Assembly: GCA_965242865.1 (NCBI GenBank)
Contig: CBDETK010000013.1
Coordinates: 416,001-480,000, forward strand
Direction: 5' to 3'
DNA from: Candidatus Latescibacterota bacterium
GTDB lineage: Bacteria > Latescibacterota > UBA2968 > UBA8231
Length of the DNA: 64,000 bases
Shown in pieces: positions 52,494-58,185 of this stretch. A program made the translations under genes and the position numbers. Below the pieces are notes generated by a model. It was not told the origin of the DNA. It saw only the letters and a list, made by a program, of their open reading frames with translations, and searched no databases. How positions within the stretch are numbered: the stretch's first letter is position 1; each line of letters opens with the position of its first letter.

Positions 52494-52507
52494 CTGAGGC
52501 TAGCGCA

Positions 52508-53311
52508 ATGACTAAAATCGTACTCTGCGGGGTGGCCGGGCGCATGGGCCAGCGGCTGGCTCACTTGACTTTGGCCGCGCCCGATTTGGAGCTATGCGGC
52601 GGCAAGGAGCACCCAACTCACGAGGCGGTGGGGCGCGACATCGGCGAAGTGGTCGGCACCCGGCACCTCGACCTAATCATCAGCGACACGCTGGCCGGCA
52701 TCGTCGAACCCGACCGAGTCGTCATCAACTTTACGACTCCGGAGGCGACCCTTGAAGACGCAGCCCTCTGCGCGGTGCGCGGGGTGCCCATGGTAGTCGG
52801 GACCACGGGGTTTAACCCAGAGCAGCTCGCGGAATTCAAGCGGACGGTAGCCGACATTACCTGCGTGTTTGCGTCGAATTTTAGCACCGCCATGAACGTG
52901 CTCTTCAAGCTGGTTGAAGAGGCCGCCCGGATCTTGGGCGACGACTACGATGTGGAAGTCATCGAAGCGCATCACCGGCACAAGGTCGATGCGCCCTCTG
53001 GGTCGGCCCTGACGCTGGCCGAGCGGGCCGCGGCCGGGTTGGGCCGCACCTTACGCGAGGTGGCTGTCCACGGGCGGTCAGGCGTGATCGGCGAGCGTTC
53101 CCGCCAAGAGATTGGCCTACACGCGATTCGCGCCGGCGACTTGGCGGGCGAGCACTCGGTGCTCTACGCGGCCCTGGGCGAATGCTTGGAGCTGCGGCAC
53201 CGCGCCACAAATCGCGATTGCTTTGCCTTGGGCGCGTTGCGTGCCGCTCGTTTTGCCGCGCAGGCTGCGCCCGGGATGTACTCGATGGGAGATGTGTTGG
53301 GGCTGGGTTGA
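52508..53311 (+). CDS. dapB: 4-hydroxy-tetrahydrodipicolinate reductase
   Basis: GRMG, GTTG and EAHHRHKVDAPSG motifs. Confidence 0.95.
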   Translation: MTKIVLCGVAGRMGQRLAHLTLAAPDLELCGGKEHPTHEAVGRDIGEVVGTRHLDLIISDTLAGIVEPDRVVINFTTPEATLEDAALCAVRGVPMVVGTTGFNPEQLAEFKRTVADITCVFASNFSTAMNVLFKLVEEAARILGDDYDVEVIEAHHRHKVDAPSGSALTLAERAAAGLGRTLREVAVHGRSGVIGERSRQEIGLHAIRAGDLAGEHSVLYAALGECLELRHRATNRDCFALGALRAARFAAQAAPGMYSMGDVLGLG

Positions 53312-53315
53312 GTGC

Positions 53316-54083
53316 TCAGCGCTTGGGGCGGAGGAGGTGCTGAGGCCCCGGCCACAAGGTCTGAATTTTGTCGCGCAACCGCGCGGCTTCCTCAAAGTTT
53401 TCCGCCTCCACGGCCACCTGTAAGTCGCGCTCTAATTGTTCGCGCTGGGACAGCGGCCGCTCCTGCTCTAATTCCTCGTACCATTCGCGCAAAAAGGAAA
53501 TCTCGGGCAAATCCTCGTCTGGCTCGGATTCCCATTCTTCGACAAAGCCCTCGATGTGGGCAATGCCTTCCTCCACGGCGTGCAGGGCCGCTCGATAGTC
53601 GTCGTTTTGCAGGGCTATCATGGCCTGCGCCCGGGTCTGCATCATAACCGCGTGTGGATAGTACTGCTCAAAGTACCAGCGGATCTCGTCGTTGGGCGCG
53701 TGCAGATCGACCAATTCAAAAATCTGTAGGGTGTGCTCGGTATCGGCGATGACCCCTTCGTAGTCTTCGAGGTTGAACAGACTTAGATAGCGGTGATAGT
53801 ACTGCCAAGCCTCTTGGAAGAGTGCTTCGCACTCGCCCTCCTTTAGCACGAAGCCTTCTGGGGTGCCGCGCGATTCGACGAGTTCTTGGTAGTAGTCGAG
53901 CAGCGAGGGGCAACCGTGCGGTTGTTGGCCGTCGGGACGGCCATCCAATTCGAGCTGAAGAAGCCCCATGTCAATGCGGATTTGAAGTTTTTCCTCGCCC
54001 TTGCGGGTGCGGATGCGCCGGGCGAGGAATTCGTCGGGCTTGAACTCCCAACCATTGAGCAAGTCGCCAATATCGTAATTCAT
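53316..54083 (-). CDS. Conserved protein with a C-terminal UvrB/UvrC motif
   Basis: QIRIDMGLLQ..GRPDG..P.G; C-terminal AVEAENFEEAARLRDKI. Confidence 0.8.
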   Translation of the reverse strand: MNYDIGDLLNGWEFKPDEFLARRIRTRKGEEKLQIRIDMGLLQLELDGRPDGQQPHGCPSLLDYYQELVESRGTPEGFVLKEGECEALFQEAWQYYHRYLSLFNLEDYEGVIADTEHTLQIFELVDLHAPNDEIRWYFEQYYPHAVMMQTRAQAMIALQNDDYRAALHAVEEGIAHIEGFVEEWESEPDEDLPEISFLREWYEELEQERPLSQREQLERDLQVAVEAENFEEAARLRDKIQTLWPGPQHLLRPKR

Positions 54084-54456
54084 GGGCGCGCTCTCTGCGA
54101 AAATAGGATGAAGAAACCAGCCCCAAGGAGGTGGGGGAACGCAGGGGACAATATACGGCAGAACTTAGCACTGCGCCACTAGCACCACCCATTATAAACG
54201 CATAATATACAGAAAGGGAAAGATAGCGGCCAGTAAACTAACTTAAATATAATATAAATAATAGGTTAGAAAAATTTATCTCGACGCAGACAGCCGTCTA
54301 AACTACCTTAAAACCGCCGCTAATTTCCAACTCATTCCACCCGGGAGGACCGATGGCCCAGCACGAGCACAATGCGCTGCAAGTGCAGGACGACAGCGGC
54401 ATCGCTTGACAAGGCATCCCTTTGCAATCAACGTACTCTAGCAAAGGAGGCATACT

Positions 54457-55272
54457 ATGCGCGAAATTGAAAACCTGCACTACGGCACTGGGCAGATCGC
54501 ACAGGAGGTGCGCTGCGTCCCGGCGCGTTCCGCAGCCGACGAACAAGCGGACCCAATGTATATCGACATCAAGACGGACCAGCAGTATTGGCGTCGCCGG
54601 GAAGTTTGCTTGCCGAGCGCGTGGCAGCGCGGTAAAGAGGCCGAACCTTTCCTCAAGGGCGAGTGGATCACTGTCGATGCCAGCGACCAAGTGCGGCGCA
54701 TCACTCGCGATCCGCATGACAACATTAGTGTATTTCCGGTTGTCGAAGCGGCGGGGCCACGTACTCAAAAGCTGGGCGTGGCTATGGGCCTGTATGAAGC
54801 CGAGACCGACAACTACTGCGGTGTACCATCCCTTGACGACCCGCTGACGATAGCCAGCGATGGCGGTACACCCAATCGAGGCCGTCTGCGCGTGGCCACG
54901 GCCGGCGAGCCGGTCGTCGCCATGGTCGCGAAGTCCCCAGCACCGGGCGTCAACGATCTGGTCTTTCGCACGGTAATTACGATCTACGTAACCGAGCAAA
55001 TCGATGGATATACTTGCCGACTTGATCCCAGAAGCAAGATCGCCGTAACGGCTCAGGCGTCTCGACCGCTAGCCCGAAGCGTTTTTATTTCTCACGACAC
55101 GTACCATGTTGCCAAGCCGGATTTTGAGTATCTCTACGGATCAATGTGGCCTCATATTGCAGGGATGCTAACGGACATTCCGGCAGAAAAACTGCGCGAT
55201 CTGGTCAAGGTATTTTTTGTCGATCCAAAGACTAAAAAAACGCTGCTTGACCTCTCGGAATACCATGTCTAA
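54457..55272 (+). CDS. Two-domain hypothetical protein with a possible phage decoration-like N-domain
   Basis: AAGGAGG RBS, 271 aa, overlaps the downstream nuclease gene by 8 bp; domain call is from recall only. Confidence 0.6.
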   Translation: MREIENLHYGTGQIAQEVRCVPARSAADEQADPMYIDIKTDQQYWRRREVCLPSAWQRGKEAEPFLKGEWITVDASDQVRRITRDPHDNISVFPVVEAAGPRTQKLGVAMGLYEAETDNYCGVPSLDDPLTIASDGGTPNRGRLRVATAGEPVVAMVAKSPAPGVNDLVFRTVITIYVTEQIDGYTCRLDPRSKIAVTAQASRPLARSVFISHDTYHVAKPDFEYLYGSMWPHIAGMLTDIPAEKLRDLVKVFFVDPKTKKTLLDLSEYHV

Positions 55273-55741
55273 ACGGAGTAATCTGTACACAGGTAGAGCA
55301 GGTCATCTGGCGGTTATGGCGGAACTGCTGCTTCGAGGGTGGAACACCGCCATTCCAGAAGTCGATGTGGGCGACGATATTTTCGTCGTCCACGATAGCC
55401 AAAGGGACTTGCGCCGCGTACAGGTAAAGACAGCTTTGGCAAGACCGTTGCAGGTCGGGCACAGCGCACAGTTTAATCTCTCGCTCTCGCAGCTCCAAAC
55501 GTCAATGACTCCAGAAGTAACGTATATTTTTGCGGTCCGACTGTGCGATCGGTGGGACTCTTTTGTCGTGATTGACCGGGAAATTTTGGATGAGGAACAT
55601 AGCTCGTATCGCCTAGGAAGCGGGAGCACCGATAGACTCGTATTGCGGTTGCGCTTCAAGGGAACCAGCGTGACCTGTAAACGACGGGACTTGTCGCAAT
55701 ACCGCAATAACTGGACGGCCTTTCCCGTTATTGAGCACTAA
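55265..55741 (+). CDS. Small PD-(D/E)XK endonuclease-fold protein
   Basis: GRAGHLAVMAELLLRGW, DVGDD and RVQVKT motifs. Confidence 0.75.
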   Translation: MSKRSNLYTGRAGHLAVMAELLLRGWNTAIPEVDVGDDIFVVHDSQRDLRRVQVKTALARPLQVGHSAQFNLSLSQLQTSMTPEVTYIFAVRLCDRWDSFVVIDREILDEEHSSYRLGSGSTDRLVLRLRFKGTSVTCKRRDLSQYRNNWTAFPVIEH

Positions 55742-55773
55742 CCGCACCTAACCTTTTTTGGAGAATTTTATTT

Positions 55774-56694
55774 ATGGCTCATCACGAATTCGCCCCCACC
55801 CACTACCACACGACCATCGGCTGGCACGAGCCAGTGCTGGCCATCGCCCCCGGCGACGCGGTCTCTACCACCACCGTTGACGCCCGCGGCCAAGACCAGC
55901 ACGGCGAGCGGGTCACCGAGCGCGGCAACCCCATGACCGGCCCGTTCTACATAGAAGGAGCTGAGCCGGGCGATACGCTGGTCGTTCACTTCGACCGGCT
56001 CTATCCCAACCGCGACTGGGGCTGGACCGCCCACGGCATCGCGCCCAATGTGCTAGACCCGGGTTTTGCCACCGGCATTGAGCGCGACGACCAACCGCTC
56101 CGCTGGCCGATTGATCTGGCCGCGGGCACGGCCACCCAGCCGGAGGTCCTGCCGGGCTTGGAGTTGCCCCTCAGCCCGATGCTGGGCTGTTTCGGAGTGG
56201 CCCCGCCGCGCGGCCAAGCCATTTCCACGGCCACCTCCTCGACCCACGGCGGCAACATGGACTACCGCGGCTTTGTCGCGGGCGCGACCGTGTATTTGCC
56301 GGTTGCGGCCCCGGGGGCCCTCTTCCACCTAGGCGATGGGCACGCTGTCCAAGGCGACGGCGAGATCGTGGGCACGGGCGTGGAAATCTCCTTTGACGCG
56401 ACGTTTACGGTCGATCTGATCAAAGGCAAGCCCATCGGCTGGCCCCGCGCTGAAAACCCCACCCACCTGCTCGCGGTCGGCAATGCGCGGCCCTTGGACC
56501 AATGCGTCCAGCACGCCACCAGCGAGCTGGTCACTTGGCTCACCCAAGACTACGCGCTCACCGCGTTGAGTGCCCACGCGCTGTTGGGGCAGTGCGTGGA
56601 ATACGATCTGGGGAATGTGTACGACCCGGCGTACACCATGGTTTGCAAGGTCGCCAAGTCGCGGCTGGCGGCTTTGGACGCCGAGCGGTTATAA
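55774..56694 (+). CDS. Acetamidase/formamidase family protein
   Basis: NPMTGPF..GAEPGD, HGGNMD, GDGHAVQGDGE and VEI motifs. Confidence 0.9.
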   Translation: MAHHEFAPTHYHTTIGWHEPVLAIAPGDAVSTTTVDARGQDQHGERVTERGNPMTGPFYIEGAEPGDTLVVHFDRLYPNRDWGWTAHGIAPNVLDPGFATGIERDDQPLRWPIDLAAGTATQPEVLPGLELPLSPMLGCFGVAPPRGQAISTATSSTHGGNMDYRGFVAGATVYLPVAAPGALFHLGDGHAVQGDGEIVGTGVEISFDATFTVDLIKGKPIGWPRAENPTHLLAVGNARPLDQCVQHATSELVTWLTQDYALTALSAHALLGQCVEYDLGNVYDPAYTMVCKVAKSRLAALDAERL

Positions 56695-58185
56695 GTCGGC
56701 GATGGAGTCGAGGCCCTCGGGCTGGGGCAAGACGTAGCGGACGGGCTGGACGCCGCCGTCGCGGCGGCGCACCTGTTCGACCCGCTTGCACTTGATGACC
56801 GAGTGCTCGATCAGCAGGTCGTCGTCGATTTGGCAGCCGTAGAGGTAGCTGGTGCCCTTGATGGTCACGCGCTCGCCCACGCGCATGGGGTGCTCGTCGC
56901 TGCCGGTTAGGAGCACGCCCGACTCAATGCGGCTGCGCGCTCCAATCCGCAGGTTTCCCTTGATGATATTGCGGCTGAGTATTTCGACTCGCTCGCCCAG
57001 CGCGAGGGTTTGCGCCGGGTACGCACTCAGCTCGACGCCAACGCCAATTTGCACCCCCTCGCCGAGCACCACGTGGCCGCTCAGGTGGCTGCGGTCCCCA
57101 ATGGAGACTCGGCGGTTGAGCTGGACTTGGGGGCCGATGTACGTGCCCTTGCCGACGACGATGTCCAAGGGGCCGCGCTCCGCATCCATGCTGAGGATCT
57201 GGTCGATGACCTCGTCGGCGATGAAGAAGTCCTCCTCGTCGGCGATGGTGATGGTGTCTTTGAGCTTGTCGTAGGCCCAGCGGCGGGCGATGGCCTCCAT
57301 CTGCCGCCAGACGCTTTTGACGTTGAAGGCGAGGAGCGCCTCTTCGCTGTCGGCCGGAGCGGCCCGCACCACGAGCTGGTGCCGATTGAAAATTTGCACC
57401 AAGTCGGTCAGCAGCAACTCGCCTTGGGCATTGTCGGTGTTGAGGTGCGGGATGTACGTCCGCAGGGCGCTTTCTCTGAAGGCGACGCCGCCGGTGTTGA
57501 TCTCGCGCGTTTCCAACAACGCTTGGCGGGTGAAGGGGTACGTGCGGCCATTGTACAGGGCTTCGTAGGGCGTTGCCGCATCGAGGCTGAGGATGTCCTT
57601 GTGCTCGCGGATTTCAATGACTTTGTCGCGGTCGTCCCCCGCGGGCTGCCCGTCGGCGTCGGTGGCTGGTACGCGCACGATGCGGCCATAGAAGTTGGTG
57701 TCGGGGGGGCCGCTGTACAGGCTGGTGAGCACCATCATGTCGCAGTCGGCGTTTTCAAAGTGGGCGCGGAAGCGGGCCACGACTTGCCCGGTCAACAAGC
57801 CCATGTCCCCTAAAAAGATGTACACGTCGCGGTCGGTCGCGGCGGCCGGAAAGGCTTGGAGGCCGACGCGCACGGCGTCGCCGGTGCCGGCCGGCCGGCC
57901 GAGGACCGGGTTTTCTTGGTACGCGAAAAGACGCCCCGGCTGGGGGCCGGCCGCGCGGGCCACGTCCTCGCCCTTGATGCCCACGACCATGACCTGATTG
58001 GGGCTGTCAAGGCCCTGTTGCACGGCGCGGGCCACGCGCACGGCCGTTGGCTGGCCCCAAATTTCGTGCAGCATCTTGGAGGTCTCCGAGCGGATGCGCT
58101 TGCCGTGGCCAGCCGCCAAAATCAGGCCGATGCGGCGGCTGTCGTCCAAAATTGGCGAATTAAGCGCTGCGAGCAGGTCGTGCAT
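56689..58185 (-). CDS. GlmU-like nucleotidyltransferase with a short hexapeptide beta-helix
   Basis: ILAAGHGKR...K, GTGDAV, GDM, YGRIVR, EINTG and NAQGE..LTD motifs. Confidence 0.75.
   Translation of the reverse strand: MHDLLAALNSPILDDSRRIGLILAAGHGKRIRSETSKMLHEIWGQPTAVRVARAVQQGLDSPNQVMVVGIKGEDVARAAGPQPGRLFAYQENPVLGRPAGTGDAVRVGLQAFPAAATDRDVYIFLGDMGLLTGQVVARFRAHFENADCDMMVLTSLYSGPPDTNFYGRIVRVPATDADGQPAGDDRDKVIEIREHKDILSLDAATPYEALYNGRTYPFTRQALLETREINTGGVAFRESALRTYIPHLNTDNAQGELLLTDLVQIFNRHQLVVRAAPADSEEALLAFNVKSVWRQMEAIARRWAYDKLKDTITIADEEDFFIADEVIDQILSMDAERGPLDIVVGKGTYIGPQVQLNRRVSIGDRSHLSGHVVLGEGVQIGVGVELSAYPAQTLALGERVEILSRNIIKGNLRIGARSRIESGVLLTGSDEHPMRVGERVTIKGTSYLYGCQIDDDLLIEHSVIKCKRVEQVRRRDGGVQPVRYVLPQPEGLDSIADL

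What the first reader, a model, noticed from the sequence alone, without database searches (positions are those of the whole stretch)
54457..55741. Phage capsid-decoration-like domain fused in a two-gene module with a PD-(D/E)XK nuclease
Seen: an isolated lower-GC two-gene insert behind an AT-rich tract, with overlapping genes and no other phage genes nearby. Residues ~34-173 of gene 1 (RRREVCL, PFLKGEWITVD, GLYEAET, PLTI..GRLRVATAGEPVVAMV..P..LVF) have the beta-rich pattern I associate with head cement/decoration proteins encoded beside major capsid genes. This is recall and unverified. A distinct ~100-aa C-terminal domain follows. Inference: a co-opted virion protein could sense assembling capsids and trigger the partner nuclease (abortive infection), or act as a capsid-interfering decoy.
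Basis: inference. Interest (0 to 1): 0.72.

Follow-up and report, generated by a model that had tools for sequence, protein, structure and literature searches.

The report
Capsid-decoration domain on antitoxin-like nuclease partner
A horizontally acquired two-gene cassette pairs a small DNA-cutting enzyme with a partner protein that here carries a domain folded like a phage head-decoration protein, so it may be a toxin-antitoxin-type defence that reads out phage capsid assembly.

Summary
Window 54395-55771 is a low-GC insert that replaced two native genes. It encodes gene 1 (54457 or 54556 to 55272) and gene 2 (55265-55741), which overlap by 8 nt.

- Residues 34-173 fold with high confidence into the fold of tailed-phage decoration/cement proteins (VIA Z up to 11.0; all 21 chains with Z>=5 are virion proteins). 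They have no Pfam or PHROG match.
- Residues 174-271 are a new ~95-aa domain with no family or fold match.

That C-domain, not the N-domain, is the conserved partner of gene 2. It lies directly upstream of the gene-2 homologue in 74 of 80 loci from many phyla, usually as a standalone protein. Sometimes it carries other unknown N-terminal extensions.

Gene 2 is a divergent PDDEXK_5-like nuclease.

Three results point to a toxin-antitoxin-like pair.
- The C-domain occurs without the nuclease in 7 of 168 genomes of the phylum. An intact nuclease never occurs without it.
- In one genome the C-domain is fused to a YefM-like tail upstream of a YoeB toxin.
- Neighbouring genes are unrelated housekeeping genes.

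Capsid sensing by the decoration domain is plausible but untested. The decoration fusion is rare (8 protein clusters) and under purifying selection.

The parts
54395..55771 (.). Horizontally acquired segment that replaced two native genes
   Evidence: The flanks (window 52500-54394 and 55772-57500) are conserved in the genus, while this stretch is replaced by about 1.68 kb of other DNA in most relatives and is absent in G144. GC is 0.50-0.58. No flanking direct or inverted repeats were found.
54457..55272 (+). Gene 1 (271 aa from ATG 54457, or 238 aa from ATG 54556): two-domain partner protein
   Evidence: ORF. AAGGAGG lies 7 nt before 54457. Close homologues start at M34. Eight homologue clusters at 76-91% identity.
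54556..54975 (+). N-domain (aa 34-173): phage capsid decoration/cement-protein fold
   Evidence: AF2 model pLDDT 89.9, all-beta over residues 1-140. VIA Z 11.0/10.3/10.2/9.8 to HFTV1, BB1, TW1 and Pam3 capsid accessory proteins. Foldseek PDB and BFVD top hits are all virion proteins. dN/dS 0.31 against the G061 copy.
54976..55269 (+). C-domain (aa 174-271): new ~95-aa nuclease-partner (antitoxin-like) domain
   Evidence: 34 of 43 phmmer hits match only this part. It lies directly upstream of the gene-2 homologue in 74 of 80 loci. Confident model, pLDDT 86.7, with no fold match and no Pfam hit.
55265..55741 (+). Gene 2 (158 aa): PDDEXK_5-like nuclease, putative toxin/effector
   Evidence: PF11645 E 0.0013, 19.2 bits, below the 26.1-bit cut-off. 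22 of 23 family members match it at E<=0.01. phrog_5018 E 1e-6. Invariant E20, D34, D38, Q53, K55 in 23 sequences. 631 homologues. dN/dS 0.14.
54353..54394 (+). Remnant (first 14 codons) of the displaced native 252-aa gene
   Evidence: MAQHEHNALQVQDD here against MSQHEHNALQVQGD at the start of the native gene in G139/G142. Flank homology ends at 54394.
54180..54290 (.). Native AT-rich intergenic tract (probable promoter region now upstream of the cassette)
   Evidence: The same tract is present at the empty site of G144 and within the conserved left flank. The sigma-70 consensus scan found no site.

Best explanation
The locus is a self-contained, horizontally moving two-gene cassette of toxin-antitoxin type.

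Gene 2 is a small PD-(D/E)XK (PDDEXK_5-like) nuclease, the putative toxin or effector. Gene 1 is its cognate partner. Its conserved C-terminal ~95-aa domain is the part that belongs with the nuclease and most likely holds it inactive, an antitoxin-like role.

In this lineage the partner has gained an N-terminal domain with the fold of tailed-phage head decoration/cement proteins.

Proposed mechanism:
1. In uninfected cells gene 1 neutralises gene 2.
2. When a phage builds capsids, the decoration-like domain binds the capsid lattice, as cement proteins do.
3. The partner is titrated away or distorted, and the nuclease is released to cut DNA (abortive infection).

Shown: the domain architecture, the decoration fold, the C-domain/nuclease linkage across phyla, the antitoxin-like distribution, the horizontal acquisition, and purifying selection on all three parts.

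Inferred: nuclease activity and toxicity, neutralisation by the C-domain, capsid binding, and any defence phenotype.

The confidence given is for the whole chain. The toxin-antitoxin-like cassette part alone I put at about 0.65, and the capsid-trigger step at about 0.3.
For: 1. Fold. The AF2 model (pLDDT 89.9, pTM 0.86) matches capsid decoration/cement proteins. VIA against 48,161 chains gives Z 11.0 (HFTV1 8qsy, rmsd 2.7, 114 aligned), 10.3 (BB1), 10.2 (TW1 capsid-stabilising protein), 9.8 (Pam3) and 9.7 (Sf11, XM1). All 21 chains with Z>=5 are virion proteins: 20 from capsid reconstructions or head-fibre bases and 1 phi29 appendage fragment. Foldseek PDB ranks 1-31 as listed are all phage capsid or head-fibre chains, best E 1.1e-3. 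BFVD gives 10 hits at E<=1e-3, with the top one an uncultured Caudovirales protein (E 1.9e-6, TMt 0.71), plus DUF2190 and head-fibre proteins.

2. Modularity. Separate protein sets match only aa 34-173 (6 standalone ~150-aa proteins) or only 173-271 (34 of 43 hits).

3. Linkage. In 80 loci found with the gene-2 profile across Latescibacterota, Acidobacteriota, Planctomycetota, Bacteroidota, Chloroflexota, Myxococcota and Proteobacteria, a C-domain ORF lies directly upstream on the same strand in 74. It is convergent in 4, cut off by a contig edge in 1 and absent in 1.

4. Antitoxin-like asymmetry in 168 genomes of the phylum. All 19 intact gene-2 copies have the C-domain beside them, and the other 3 gene-2 hits are fragments. 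Module-type C-domains occur without gene 2 in 7 genomes. One metagenomic variant (P0008) has the nuclease deleted in frame.

5. In G076 a C-domain protein carries a C-terminal tail whose only PDB matches are the toxin-binding segment of YefM-type antitoxins (4 of 4 hits, best E 0.097 for a 39-aa query). It overlaps by 4 nt a YoeB toxin (Pfam E 1.3e-36, PDB YoeB E 3.9e-32).

6. Context. The 146 nearest-neighbour ORFs hit 137 different, mostly housekeeping, Pfam families with no recurrent third gene, integrase or prophage module.

7. Selection. dN/dS against the G061 copy is 0.31 (N-domain), 0.27 (C-domain) and 0.14 (gene 2).

8. Precedent. A fused toxin-antitoxin, CapRel, is activated directly by a phage major capsid protein (PMC9712102; search listing and start of abstract seen only).
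Against: - No sequence-level link of the N-domain to any virion family: Pfam and PHROGs gave nothing, and phage tblastn gave only two chance-level hits.
- The genomic context of the standalone N-domain relatives is unknown, so a viral origin rests on fold alone.
- A shared fold does not show capsid binding.
- No PADLOC model matches either protein, and no defence-island enrichment was seen around the 80 loci.
- Most members of the cassette family (about 57 of 75 partner ORFs) have no N-terminal extension. The core system therefore works without any capsid-like domain.
- The other extensions have no recognisable function.
- Gene 2 is below Pfam's gathering score (19.2 against 26.1 bits). Its fold was not modelled here.
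- The YoeB chimera is a single genomic case plus one related database cluster (P0144).
- dN/dS comes from one pair of sequences.
Confidence: 0.4

Rival explanations
1. It is a plain toxin-antitoxin (addiction) cassette with no phage sensing. The decoration-fold domain was captured from a prophage and serves only as an oligomerisation or stabilising module for the antitoxin, since decoration proteins are typically trimers (recalled).
For: The core cassette works without any extension in about 57 of 75 loci. There is no defence-island context and no PADLOC hit. Type II antitoxins commonly rely on a dimerisation domain, and the C-domain replaces the YefM N-terminal domain in the G076 chimera.
Against: At least five unrelated N-terminal extension families are fused to the same C-domain. 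This looks more like swappable input domains than a shared structural need. The N-domain is kept under purifying selection (dN/dS 0.31).
Confidence: 0.22
2. The decoration-like domain tethers the nuclease complex to assembling capsids. The nuclease then cuts DNA at the packaging site, or the fusion blocks cement-protein sites and destabilises heads. This is interference or decoy action rather than abortive infection.
For: The fold is the same as capsid-binding cement proteins. Earlier notes of this scan describe phage proteins that use decoration domains as capsid anchors for fused enzymes (unchecked leads).
Against: Nothing shows that the nuclease stays bound to gene 1 when active. The orphan-partner asymmetry fits neutralisation better than co-delivery. 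Most cassettes lack the domain.
Confidence: 0.1
3. The pair is a two-subunit nuclease, with the C-domain as a DNA-binding or specificity subunit. It would be a restriction-like, repair or free-standing homing-type selfish element. PF11645's founding member, I-Ssp6803I, is a homing endonuclease.
For: Gene 2 is related to PDDEXK_5. I-Ssp6803I is a PD-(D/E)XK homing endonuclease related to Hjc and PvuII (PMC3384342, passages read). The cassette sits between housekeeping genes at many different sites with no integrase, and here it replaced native genes cleanly.
Against: Insertion sites differ from locus to locus while the nuclease is 40-70% identical. That argues against site-specific homing. No methyltransferase is nearby. 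C-domains survive without the nuclease, and one pairs with YoeB, which a specificity subunit would not do.
Confidence: 0.13
4. The fusion is an accident: a decaying prophage decoration gene joined to the cassette, with no function for the N-half.
For: The fusion is rare: 8 clusters and 2 of 168 species genomes. There are a degraded N-domain fragment with 3 stops in G144 and a frameshifted copy, P0173.
Against: The N-domain is complete, confidently folded, 76-91% conserved across 8 clusters, and has dN/dS 0.31, similar to the C-domain's 0.27. It travelled with the cassette between two families of the phylum.
Confidence: 0.05

Closest known systems
Tailed-phage capsid decoration/cement proteins (HFTV1, Borrelia BB1, TW1 capsid-stabilising protein, Pam3 cement protein, Sf11, phi29 gp8.5 base; more distantly lambda gpD/SHP and DUF2190)
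   Same: The N-domain has the same fold and size (~140 aa): VIA Z 8-11 over 114-129 aligned residues, with lambda gpD at Z 4.0. BFVD hits include DUF2190 and head-fibre proteins.
   Different: There is no sequence-family match. It is not in a phage or prophage, not beside a capsid gene, and it is fused to a non-virion domain that pairs with a nuclease.
CapRel(SJ46)-type fused toxin-antitoxin defence, activated by a phage major capsid protein (PMC9712102; listing and abstract start seen)
   Same: The proposed logic is the same: an antitoxin element that reads a capsid component and releases a toxin.
   Different: CapRel is one polypeptide, its toxin pyrophosphorylates tRNA (recalled), and its sensor is not a virion-derived fold. 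Here there are two genes, a nuclease toxin and a sensor that itself looks like a virion protein. Activation is untested here.
YefM-YoeB type II toxin-antitoxin
   Same: The architecture is the same: a small upstream partner overlapping a small downstream toxin. In G076 the C-domain is fused to a YefM-like YoeB-binding tail upstream of a true YoeB.
   Different: The window's toxin is a PD-(D/E)XK-like protein, not a YoeB RNase. The C-domain has no similarity to the YefM/Phd N-domain.
PF11645 PDDEXK_5 / I-Ssp6803I homing endonuclease
   Same: Gene 2 matches the N-terminal catalytic half of the model (positions 6-54 of 138). 22 of 23 relatives match at E<=0.01. An E...D...QxK pattern is invariant.
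   Different: Scores are below the gathering threshold. There is no intron context and no PDB sequence match, including with the family profile. It always comes with the C-domain partner.
Panacea-type promiscuous antitoxin domains (PMC8832971; listing and abstract start seen)
   Same: One antitoxin-like domain is combined with different toxins and extra domains.
   Different: It is a different, unrelated domain. Only two toxin types have been seen so far (PDDEXK_5-like and YoeB). Here the variable part is the N-terminal extension.

Membership tests
Phage head decoration/cement proteins | Characteristic beta-rich decoration fold | tested here: met
   VIA Z up to 11.0, and all 21 chains with Z>=5 are virion proteins. 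Foldseek PDB and BFVD top hits agree.
Phage head decoration/cement proteins | Sequence membership in a decoration family (Pfam HDPD, DUF2190 or similar; PHROGs) | tested here: not met
   0 Pfam and 0 PHROG families for gene 1 at E<=1. None for 6 standalone relatives apart from two weak PHROG hits of unknown function.
Phage head decoration/cement proteins | Encoded in a virion module beside the major capsid gene | tested here: not met
   The flanks are a UVR-motif protein and a formamidase. The site is chromosomal and conserved in the genus. The context of standalone relatives could not be fetched.
Phage head decoration/cement proteins | Binds the capsid lattice (usually as trimers) | not testable with these tools
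   Needs biochemistry or cryo-EM.
Type II toxin-antitoxin module | Compact bicistronic operon, small partner upstream and overlapping the toxin gene | tested here: met
   8-nt overlap here. Same-strand adjacency in 74 of 80 loci.
Type II toxin-antitoxin module | Partner domain recurs as orphan or with other toxins, while the toxin does not occur alone | tested here: met
   7 genomes have the C-domain but no gene 2. 19 of 19 intact gene-2 copies have the C-domain. C-domain plus YoeB in G076. Exception: L100 has gene 2 without a C-domain.
Type II toxin-antitoxin module | Toxin is toxic, and is neutralised by direct binding of the antitoxin | not testable with these tools
   Needs expression and pull-down assays.
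PF11645 PDDEXK_5 nucleases | HMM score at or above Pfam's gathering score | tested here: not met
   19.2 bits against a 26.1-bit cut-off for the window protein. 22 of 23 relatives match at E<=0.01, best 6.4e-6. Some homologues carry a precomputed PF11645 label.
PF11645 PDDEXK_5 nucleases | Conserved acidic/lysine catalytic pattern of the PD-(D/E)XK core | tested here: met
   E20, D34, D38, Q53 and K55 are invariant in 23 sequences. Their assignment to catalytic roles is inferred, not shown.
PF11645 PDDEXK_5 nucleases | Restriction-endonuclease-like fold | not tested
PDB sequence searches found nothing.
Known anti-phage defence systems (PADLOC-DB v2) | Match to a model of a described system | tested here: not met
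   0 families for either protein at E<=1.

The most novel reading that the evidence does not exclude
The C-domain/PDDEXK_5-like pair is an undescribed, widespread toxin-antitoxin-type immune module whose antitoxin accepts interchangeable N-terminal sensor domains. In this lineage the sensor is a domesticated phage head-decoration protein that docks onto assembling capsids and so converts capsid assembly itself into the trigger for a suicide nuclease. A virion accessory protein would here be exapted by the host as a pattern-recognition domain.
Probability: 0.28. Interest if true: 0.85.

Novelty: new variant of a known kind. Interest (0 to 1): 0.68.

Why it matters
If the reading is right, three things follow.

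1. It defines a new two-gene cassette family found in at least seven phyla. Its partner domain is in no family library and has no fold match in the PDB.
2. It gives a natural example of a host immune sensor built from a virion protein. The sensor would recognise the assembled capsid lattice rather than a free phage protein.
3. It offers a modular scaffold of swappable N-terminal domains on one antitoxin-like domain, which could be used to ask how toxin-antitoxin systems acquire trigger specificity.

Even under the conservative reading, it documents a decoration-protein fold recruited outside any virus.

Tried and rejected
- Complex prediction of the C-domain (A6) with gene 2 (A3): no verdict, score 0.19 against the 0.32 mark, controls not run. 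This says nothing either way about binding.
- Context of standalone N-domain relatives. Two viral-contig scans and two metagenome-contig scans found no relative. Whether these ~150-aa proteins sit beside capsid genes therefore stays open.
- Phage tblastn with the N-domain and P0167, P0170, P0134 and P0157 gave only H1 (E 0.6) and H2 (E 0.9). H1 lies antisense to a 925-aa ORF and was rejected as chance.
- Gene 2 against the phage and plasmid collections: no match.
- PDB sequence searches for gene 1, gene 2, their profiles and three long partner proteins: nothing meaningful.
- ESM Atlas: gene 2 falls among unnamed clusters, one with PF11645 on 18% of members. The C-domain had no usable hit.
- C-domain fold: Foldseek best E 0.35 and VIA best Z 3.8. 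No known fold was recognised, which does not prove the fold is new.
- Pfam and PHROGs on the other N-terminal extensions gave nothing. MFS and phrog_2034 hits on L042 are probably read-through of an upstream ORF.
- P0173 and P0174, first taken as standalone N-domains, are frameshifted copies. P0160 (651 aa, repetitive) was dropped as low complexity.
- Expression: no RNA holder listed, and read laying was not run.
- Promoter scan: 0 sites. No flanking repeats.
- Literature: searches for 'PDDEXK_5', decoration protein + anti-phage defense + nuclease + capsid, and antitoxin + decoration protein + capsid + abortive infection found no paper describing this pairing. The NetFlax paper (PMC10440598; passages only) has no PDDEXK or YoeB term in its main text. 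Supplements were not available and might list such nodes.
Full report
**1. What is there**

Gene 1 (54457..55272, +) and gene 2 (55217..55741 as listed) are real ORFs. The likely gene-2 start is ATG 55265. From that Met the 158-aa product aligns with its homologues, the 120 listed being 138-175 aa. This start overlaps the gene-1 stop by 8 nt. GC falls to 0.50-0.58 across the pair, against 0.62-0.69 around it.

A search of the other 30 genomes of the genus with window 52500-57500 found both flanks in all 30. Window 54395-55771 is the variable part.
- Most relatives carry about 1.68 kb there, encoding a 252-aa and a ~310-aa protein.
- G144 has an empty site.
- The first 14 codons of the displaced gene remain at 54353-54394.
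- No flanking repeats, integrase or transposase features were seen.

The closest copy is in G061, a genome of another family of the same class. It shares DNA only over 54554-55748, at 87.6%. The cassette therefore moved horizontally as a unit from Met34 of gene 1 to the end of gene 2. The 33 codons before Met34 are not shared. They form a separate 32-aa ORF in one relative (P0141), so the start of gene 1 is ambiguous, although ATG 54457 has a strong AAGGAGG. Record titles of the matching public loci place these genomes in Latescibacterota.

**2.

No Pfam, PHROG, PADLOC or NCBIfam model matches gene 1. Full-length relatives are few: 8 clusters, 76-91% identical. An exhaustive phmmer search gave 43 hits:
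- 1 is full length.
- 6 are standalone ~150-aa proteins matching only aa 34-173.
- 34 match only aa 173-271. Most are standalone ~95-105-aa proteins, and some are the C-terminus of longer ones.
- 1 is the leader peptide.
- 1 is a repetitive protein, which I dropped.

A profile search added only two more true standalone N-domain proteins. P0173 and P0174 proved to be frameshifted copies.

**3. The N-domain has a capsid decoration fold**

The AF2 model of the 238-aa form is confident (pLDDT 89.9, pTM 0.86).

| Search | Result |
|---|---|
| VIA-align against 48,161 PDB representatives | Z 11.0 HFTV1, 10.3 Borrelia phage BB1, 10.2 TW1 capsid-stabilising protein, 9.8 Pam3, 9.7 Sf11 and XM1, all over model residues 1-140. 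9 chains have Z>=8. All 21 chains with Z>=5 are virion proteins. Lambda gpD scores 4.0. |
| Foldseek PDB | Best E is 1.1e-3, so nothing at E<=0.001. Every listed rank down to 31 is a phage capsid or head-fibre chain. |
| Foldseek BFVD | 10 hits at E<=1e-3. The top hit is an uncultured Caudovirales protein (E 1.9e-6, 24% identity), with DUF2190 and head-fibre proteins below it. |

Sequence searches against phage collections found nothing credible. I could not recover the neighbourhoods of the standalone relatives.

**4. The C-domain is the nuclease's real partner**

I found 80 loci with the gene-2 profile in one-genome-per-species contigs, spanning at least seven phyla. The C-domain ORF is placed as follows:
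- Same strand, directly upstream of the nuclease gene: 74 of 80.
- Convergent with it: 4 (all Gemmata-type).
- Cut off by a contig edge: 1.
- Absent: 1.

About 57 of 75 partner ORFs are the bare domain. The rest carry unrelated N-terminal extensions of about 67, 86, 131, 300-320, 410-470, 436 and 563 aa. None has a Pfam, PHROG or PDB match. The decoration-like extension occurs only in the window and in G061.

The C-domain alone models confidently (pLDDT 86.7) but has no fold match (Foldseek best E 0.35, VIA best Z 3.8).

**5. Gene 2**

PF11645 (PDDEXK_5) matches at 19.2 bits, below the 26.1-bit cut-off. 22 of 23 diverse relatives match it at E<=0.01. E20, D34, D38, Q53 and K55 are invariant. 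The family has at least 631 members. PF11645's known member I-Ssp6803I is a PD-(D/E)XK homing endonuclease related to Hjc and PvuII (PMC3384342, passages read). Gene 2's fold was not modelled.

**6. Why toxin-antitoxin-like**

(a) The operon is compact and overlapping.

(b) The 146 nearest-neighbour ORFs of the 80 loci hit 137 Pfam families, mostly housekeeping. The commonest is an amino-acid permease in 5 loci. There is no recurrent third gene.

(c) Among the 168 genomes of the phylum, gene 2 is found in 22. Of those, 19 are intact and all 19 have the C-domain adjacent. The other 3 are fragments. Module-type C-domains occur without gene 2 in 7 genomes: G045, G051, G054, G073, G076, G087 and G139. 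Extra copies occur in G141, G046 and G061. P0008 is a copy with the nuclease deleted in frame.

(d) In G076 a 133-aa protein consists of the C-domain plus a tail. The tail's only PDB matches are the C-terminal, toxin-binding stretch of YefM-type antitoxins (4 of 4 hits, best E 0.097 for 39 aa). This protein overlaps by 4 nt a bona fide YoeB toxin. There the C-domain stands where the YefM N-terminal domain normally stands.

(e) dN/dS against G061 is 0.31 for the N-domain, 0.27 for the C-domain and 0.14 for gene 2 (one pair only).

**7. Mechanism**

Most likely gene 1 holds the nuclease in check through its C-domain, and the N-terminal extensions are input domains. For the decoration-fold input the natural ligand is a capsid lattice, which gives a capsid-triggered abortive-infection model. 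The model is analogous in logic to CapRel (PMC9712102; listing and abstract start only).

This last step is inference. The core cassette mostly lacks any extension, no defence-island context is seen, and PADLOC has no model for it. Rivals are listed separately:
- A plain addiction module with a structural N-domain.
- Capsid tethering or a decoy.
- A two-subunit or homing-type nuclease.
- An accidental fusion.

**8. Novelty**

My searches found no description of this pairing or of the C-domain. I rate it a new variant of a known kind: toxin-antitoxin-type modules with a phage-component sensor. It has a new partner domain and an unprecedented virion-fold input. Earlier notes of this scan describe decoration domains used by phages as capsid anchors for fused enzymes (unchecked). 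These make capsid binding by such fusions more plausible but are not evidence here.

Noticed in passing
L121 791-1540 (-), L122 768-1520 (-); about 25 further genomes: A conserved ~250-aa Latescibacterota protein carries a weaker C-domain-like region at its C-terminus (E 1e-12 to 1e-6). It has no Pfam match and no nuclease gene downstream. It may be a chromosomal relative or ancestor of the cassette's partner domain.
   Followed up: partly
L070, L084, L092, L099: In the four Gemmata-type (Planctomycetota) loci the C-domain gene is convergent with the nuclease gene and overlaps its 3' end, instead of lying upstream on the same strand.
   Followed up: no
L100 2555-3043 (+) and 3064-7038 (-): This is the only locus with the nuclease but no C-domain. 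Here it lies convergent with a 1324-aa helicase that has a Helicase_C and an MrfA Zn-binding (MZB) domain, a combination I recall from defence systems.
   Followed up: no
L128 1933-3213 (+), L131 485-1765 (-): In G054 and G051 an orphan C-domain gene is followed by a 426-aa protein ending in DUF433, a domain I recall as antitoxin-associated. In G045 it is followed by an unknown 317-aa protein. These may be alternative partners.
   Followed up: partly
L116 339-1097 and 779-1990; L118 330-1094 and 1064-2002: The two native genes displaced by the cassette (252-254 aa and about 310 aa) are unannotated: no Pfam hit for the first and a weak DUF6178 hit for the second. They are themselves missing in G144, so this intergenic site is a variable spot in the genus. 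G133 has about 7 kb there.
   Followed up: partly
L102 2793-3119 and 3112-3438; L125 941-1231 and 1418-2722: Tandem duplicated C-domain genes lie upstream of a single nuclease gene in a Saprospiraceae MAG and in G141.
   Followed up: no
L021 (G144:C1:3240904-3241140): A degraded fragment of the decoration-like N-domain (47-56% identity, 3 in-frame stops) sits elsewhere in the genome that has the empty site. This suggests an earlier, now decayed, copy of the fused gene.
   Followed up: no
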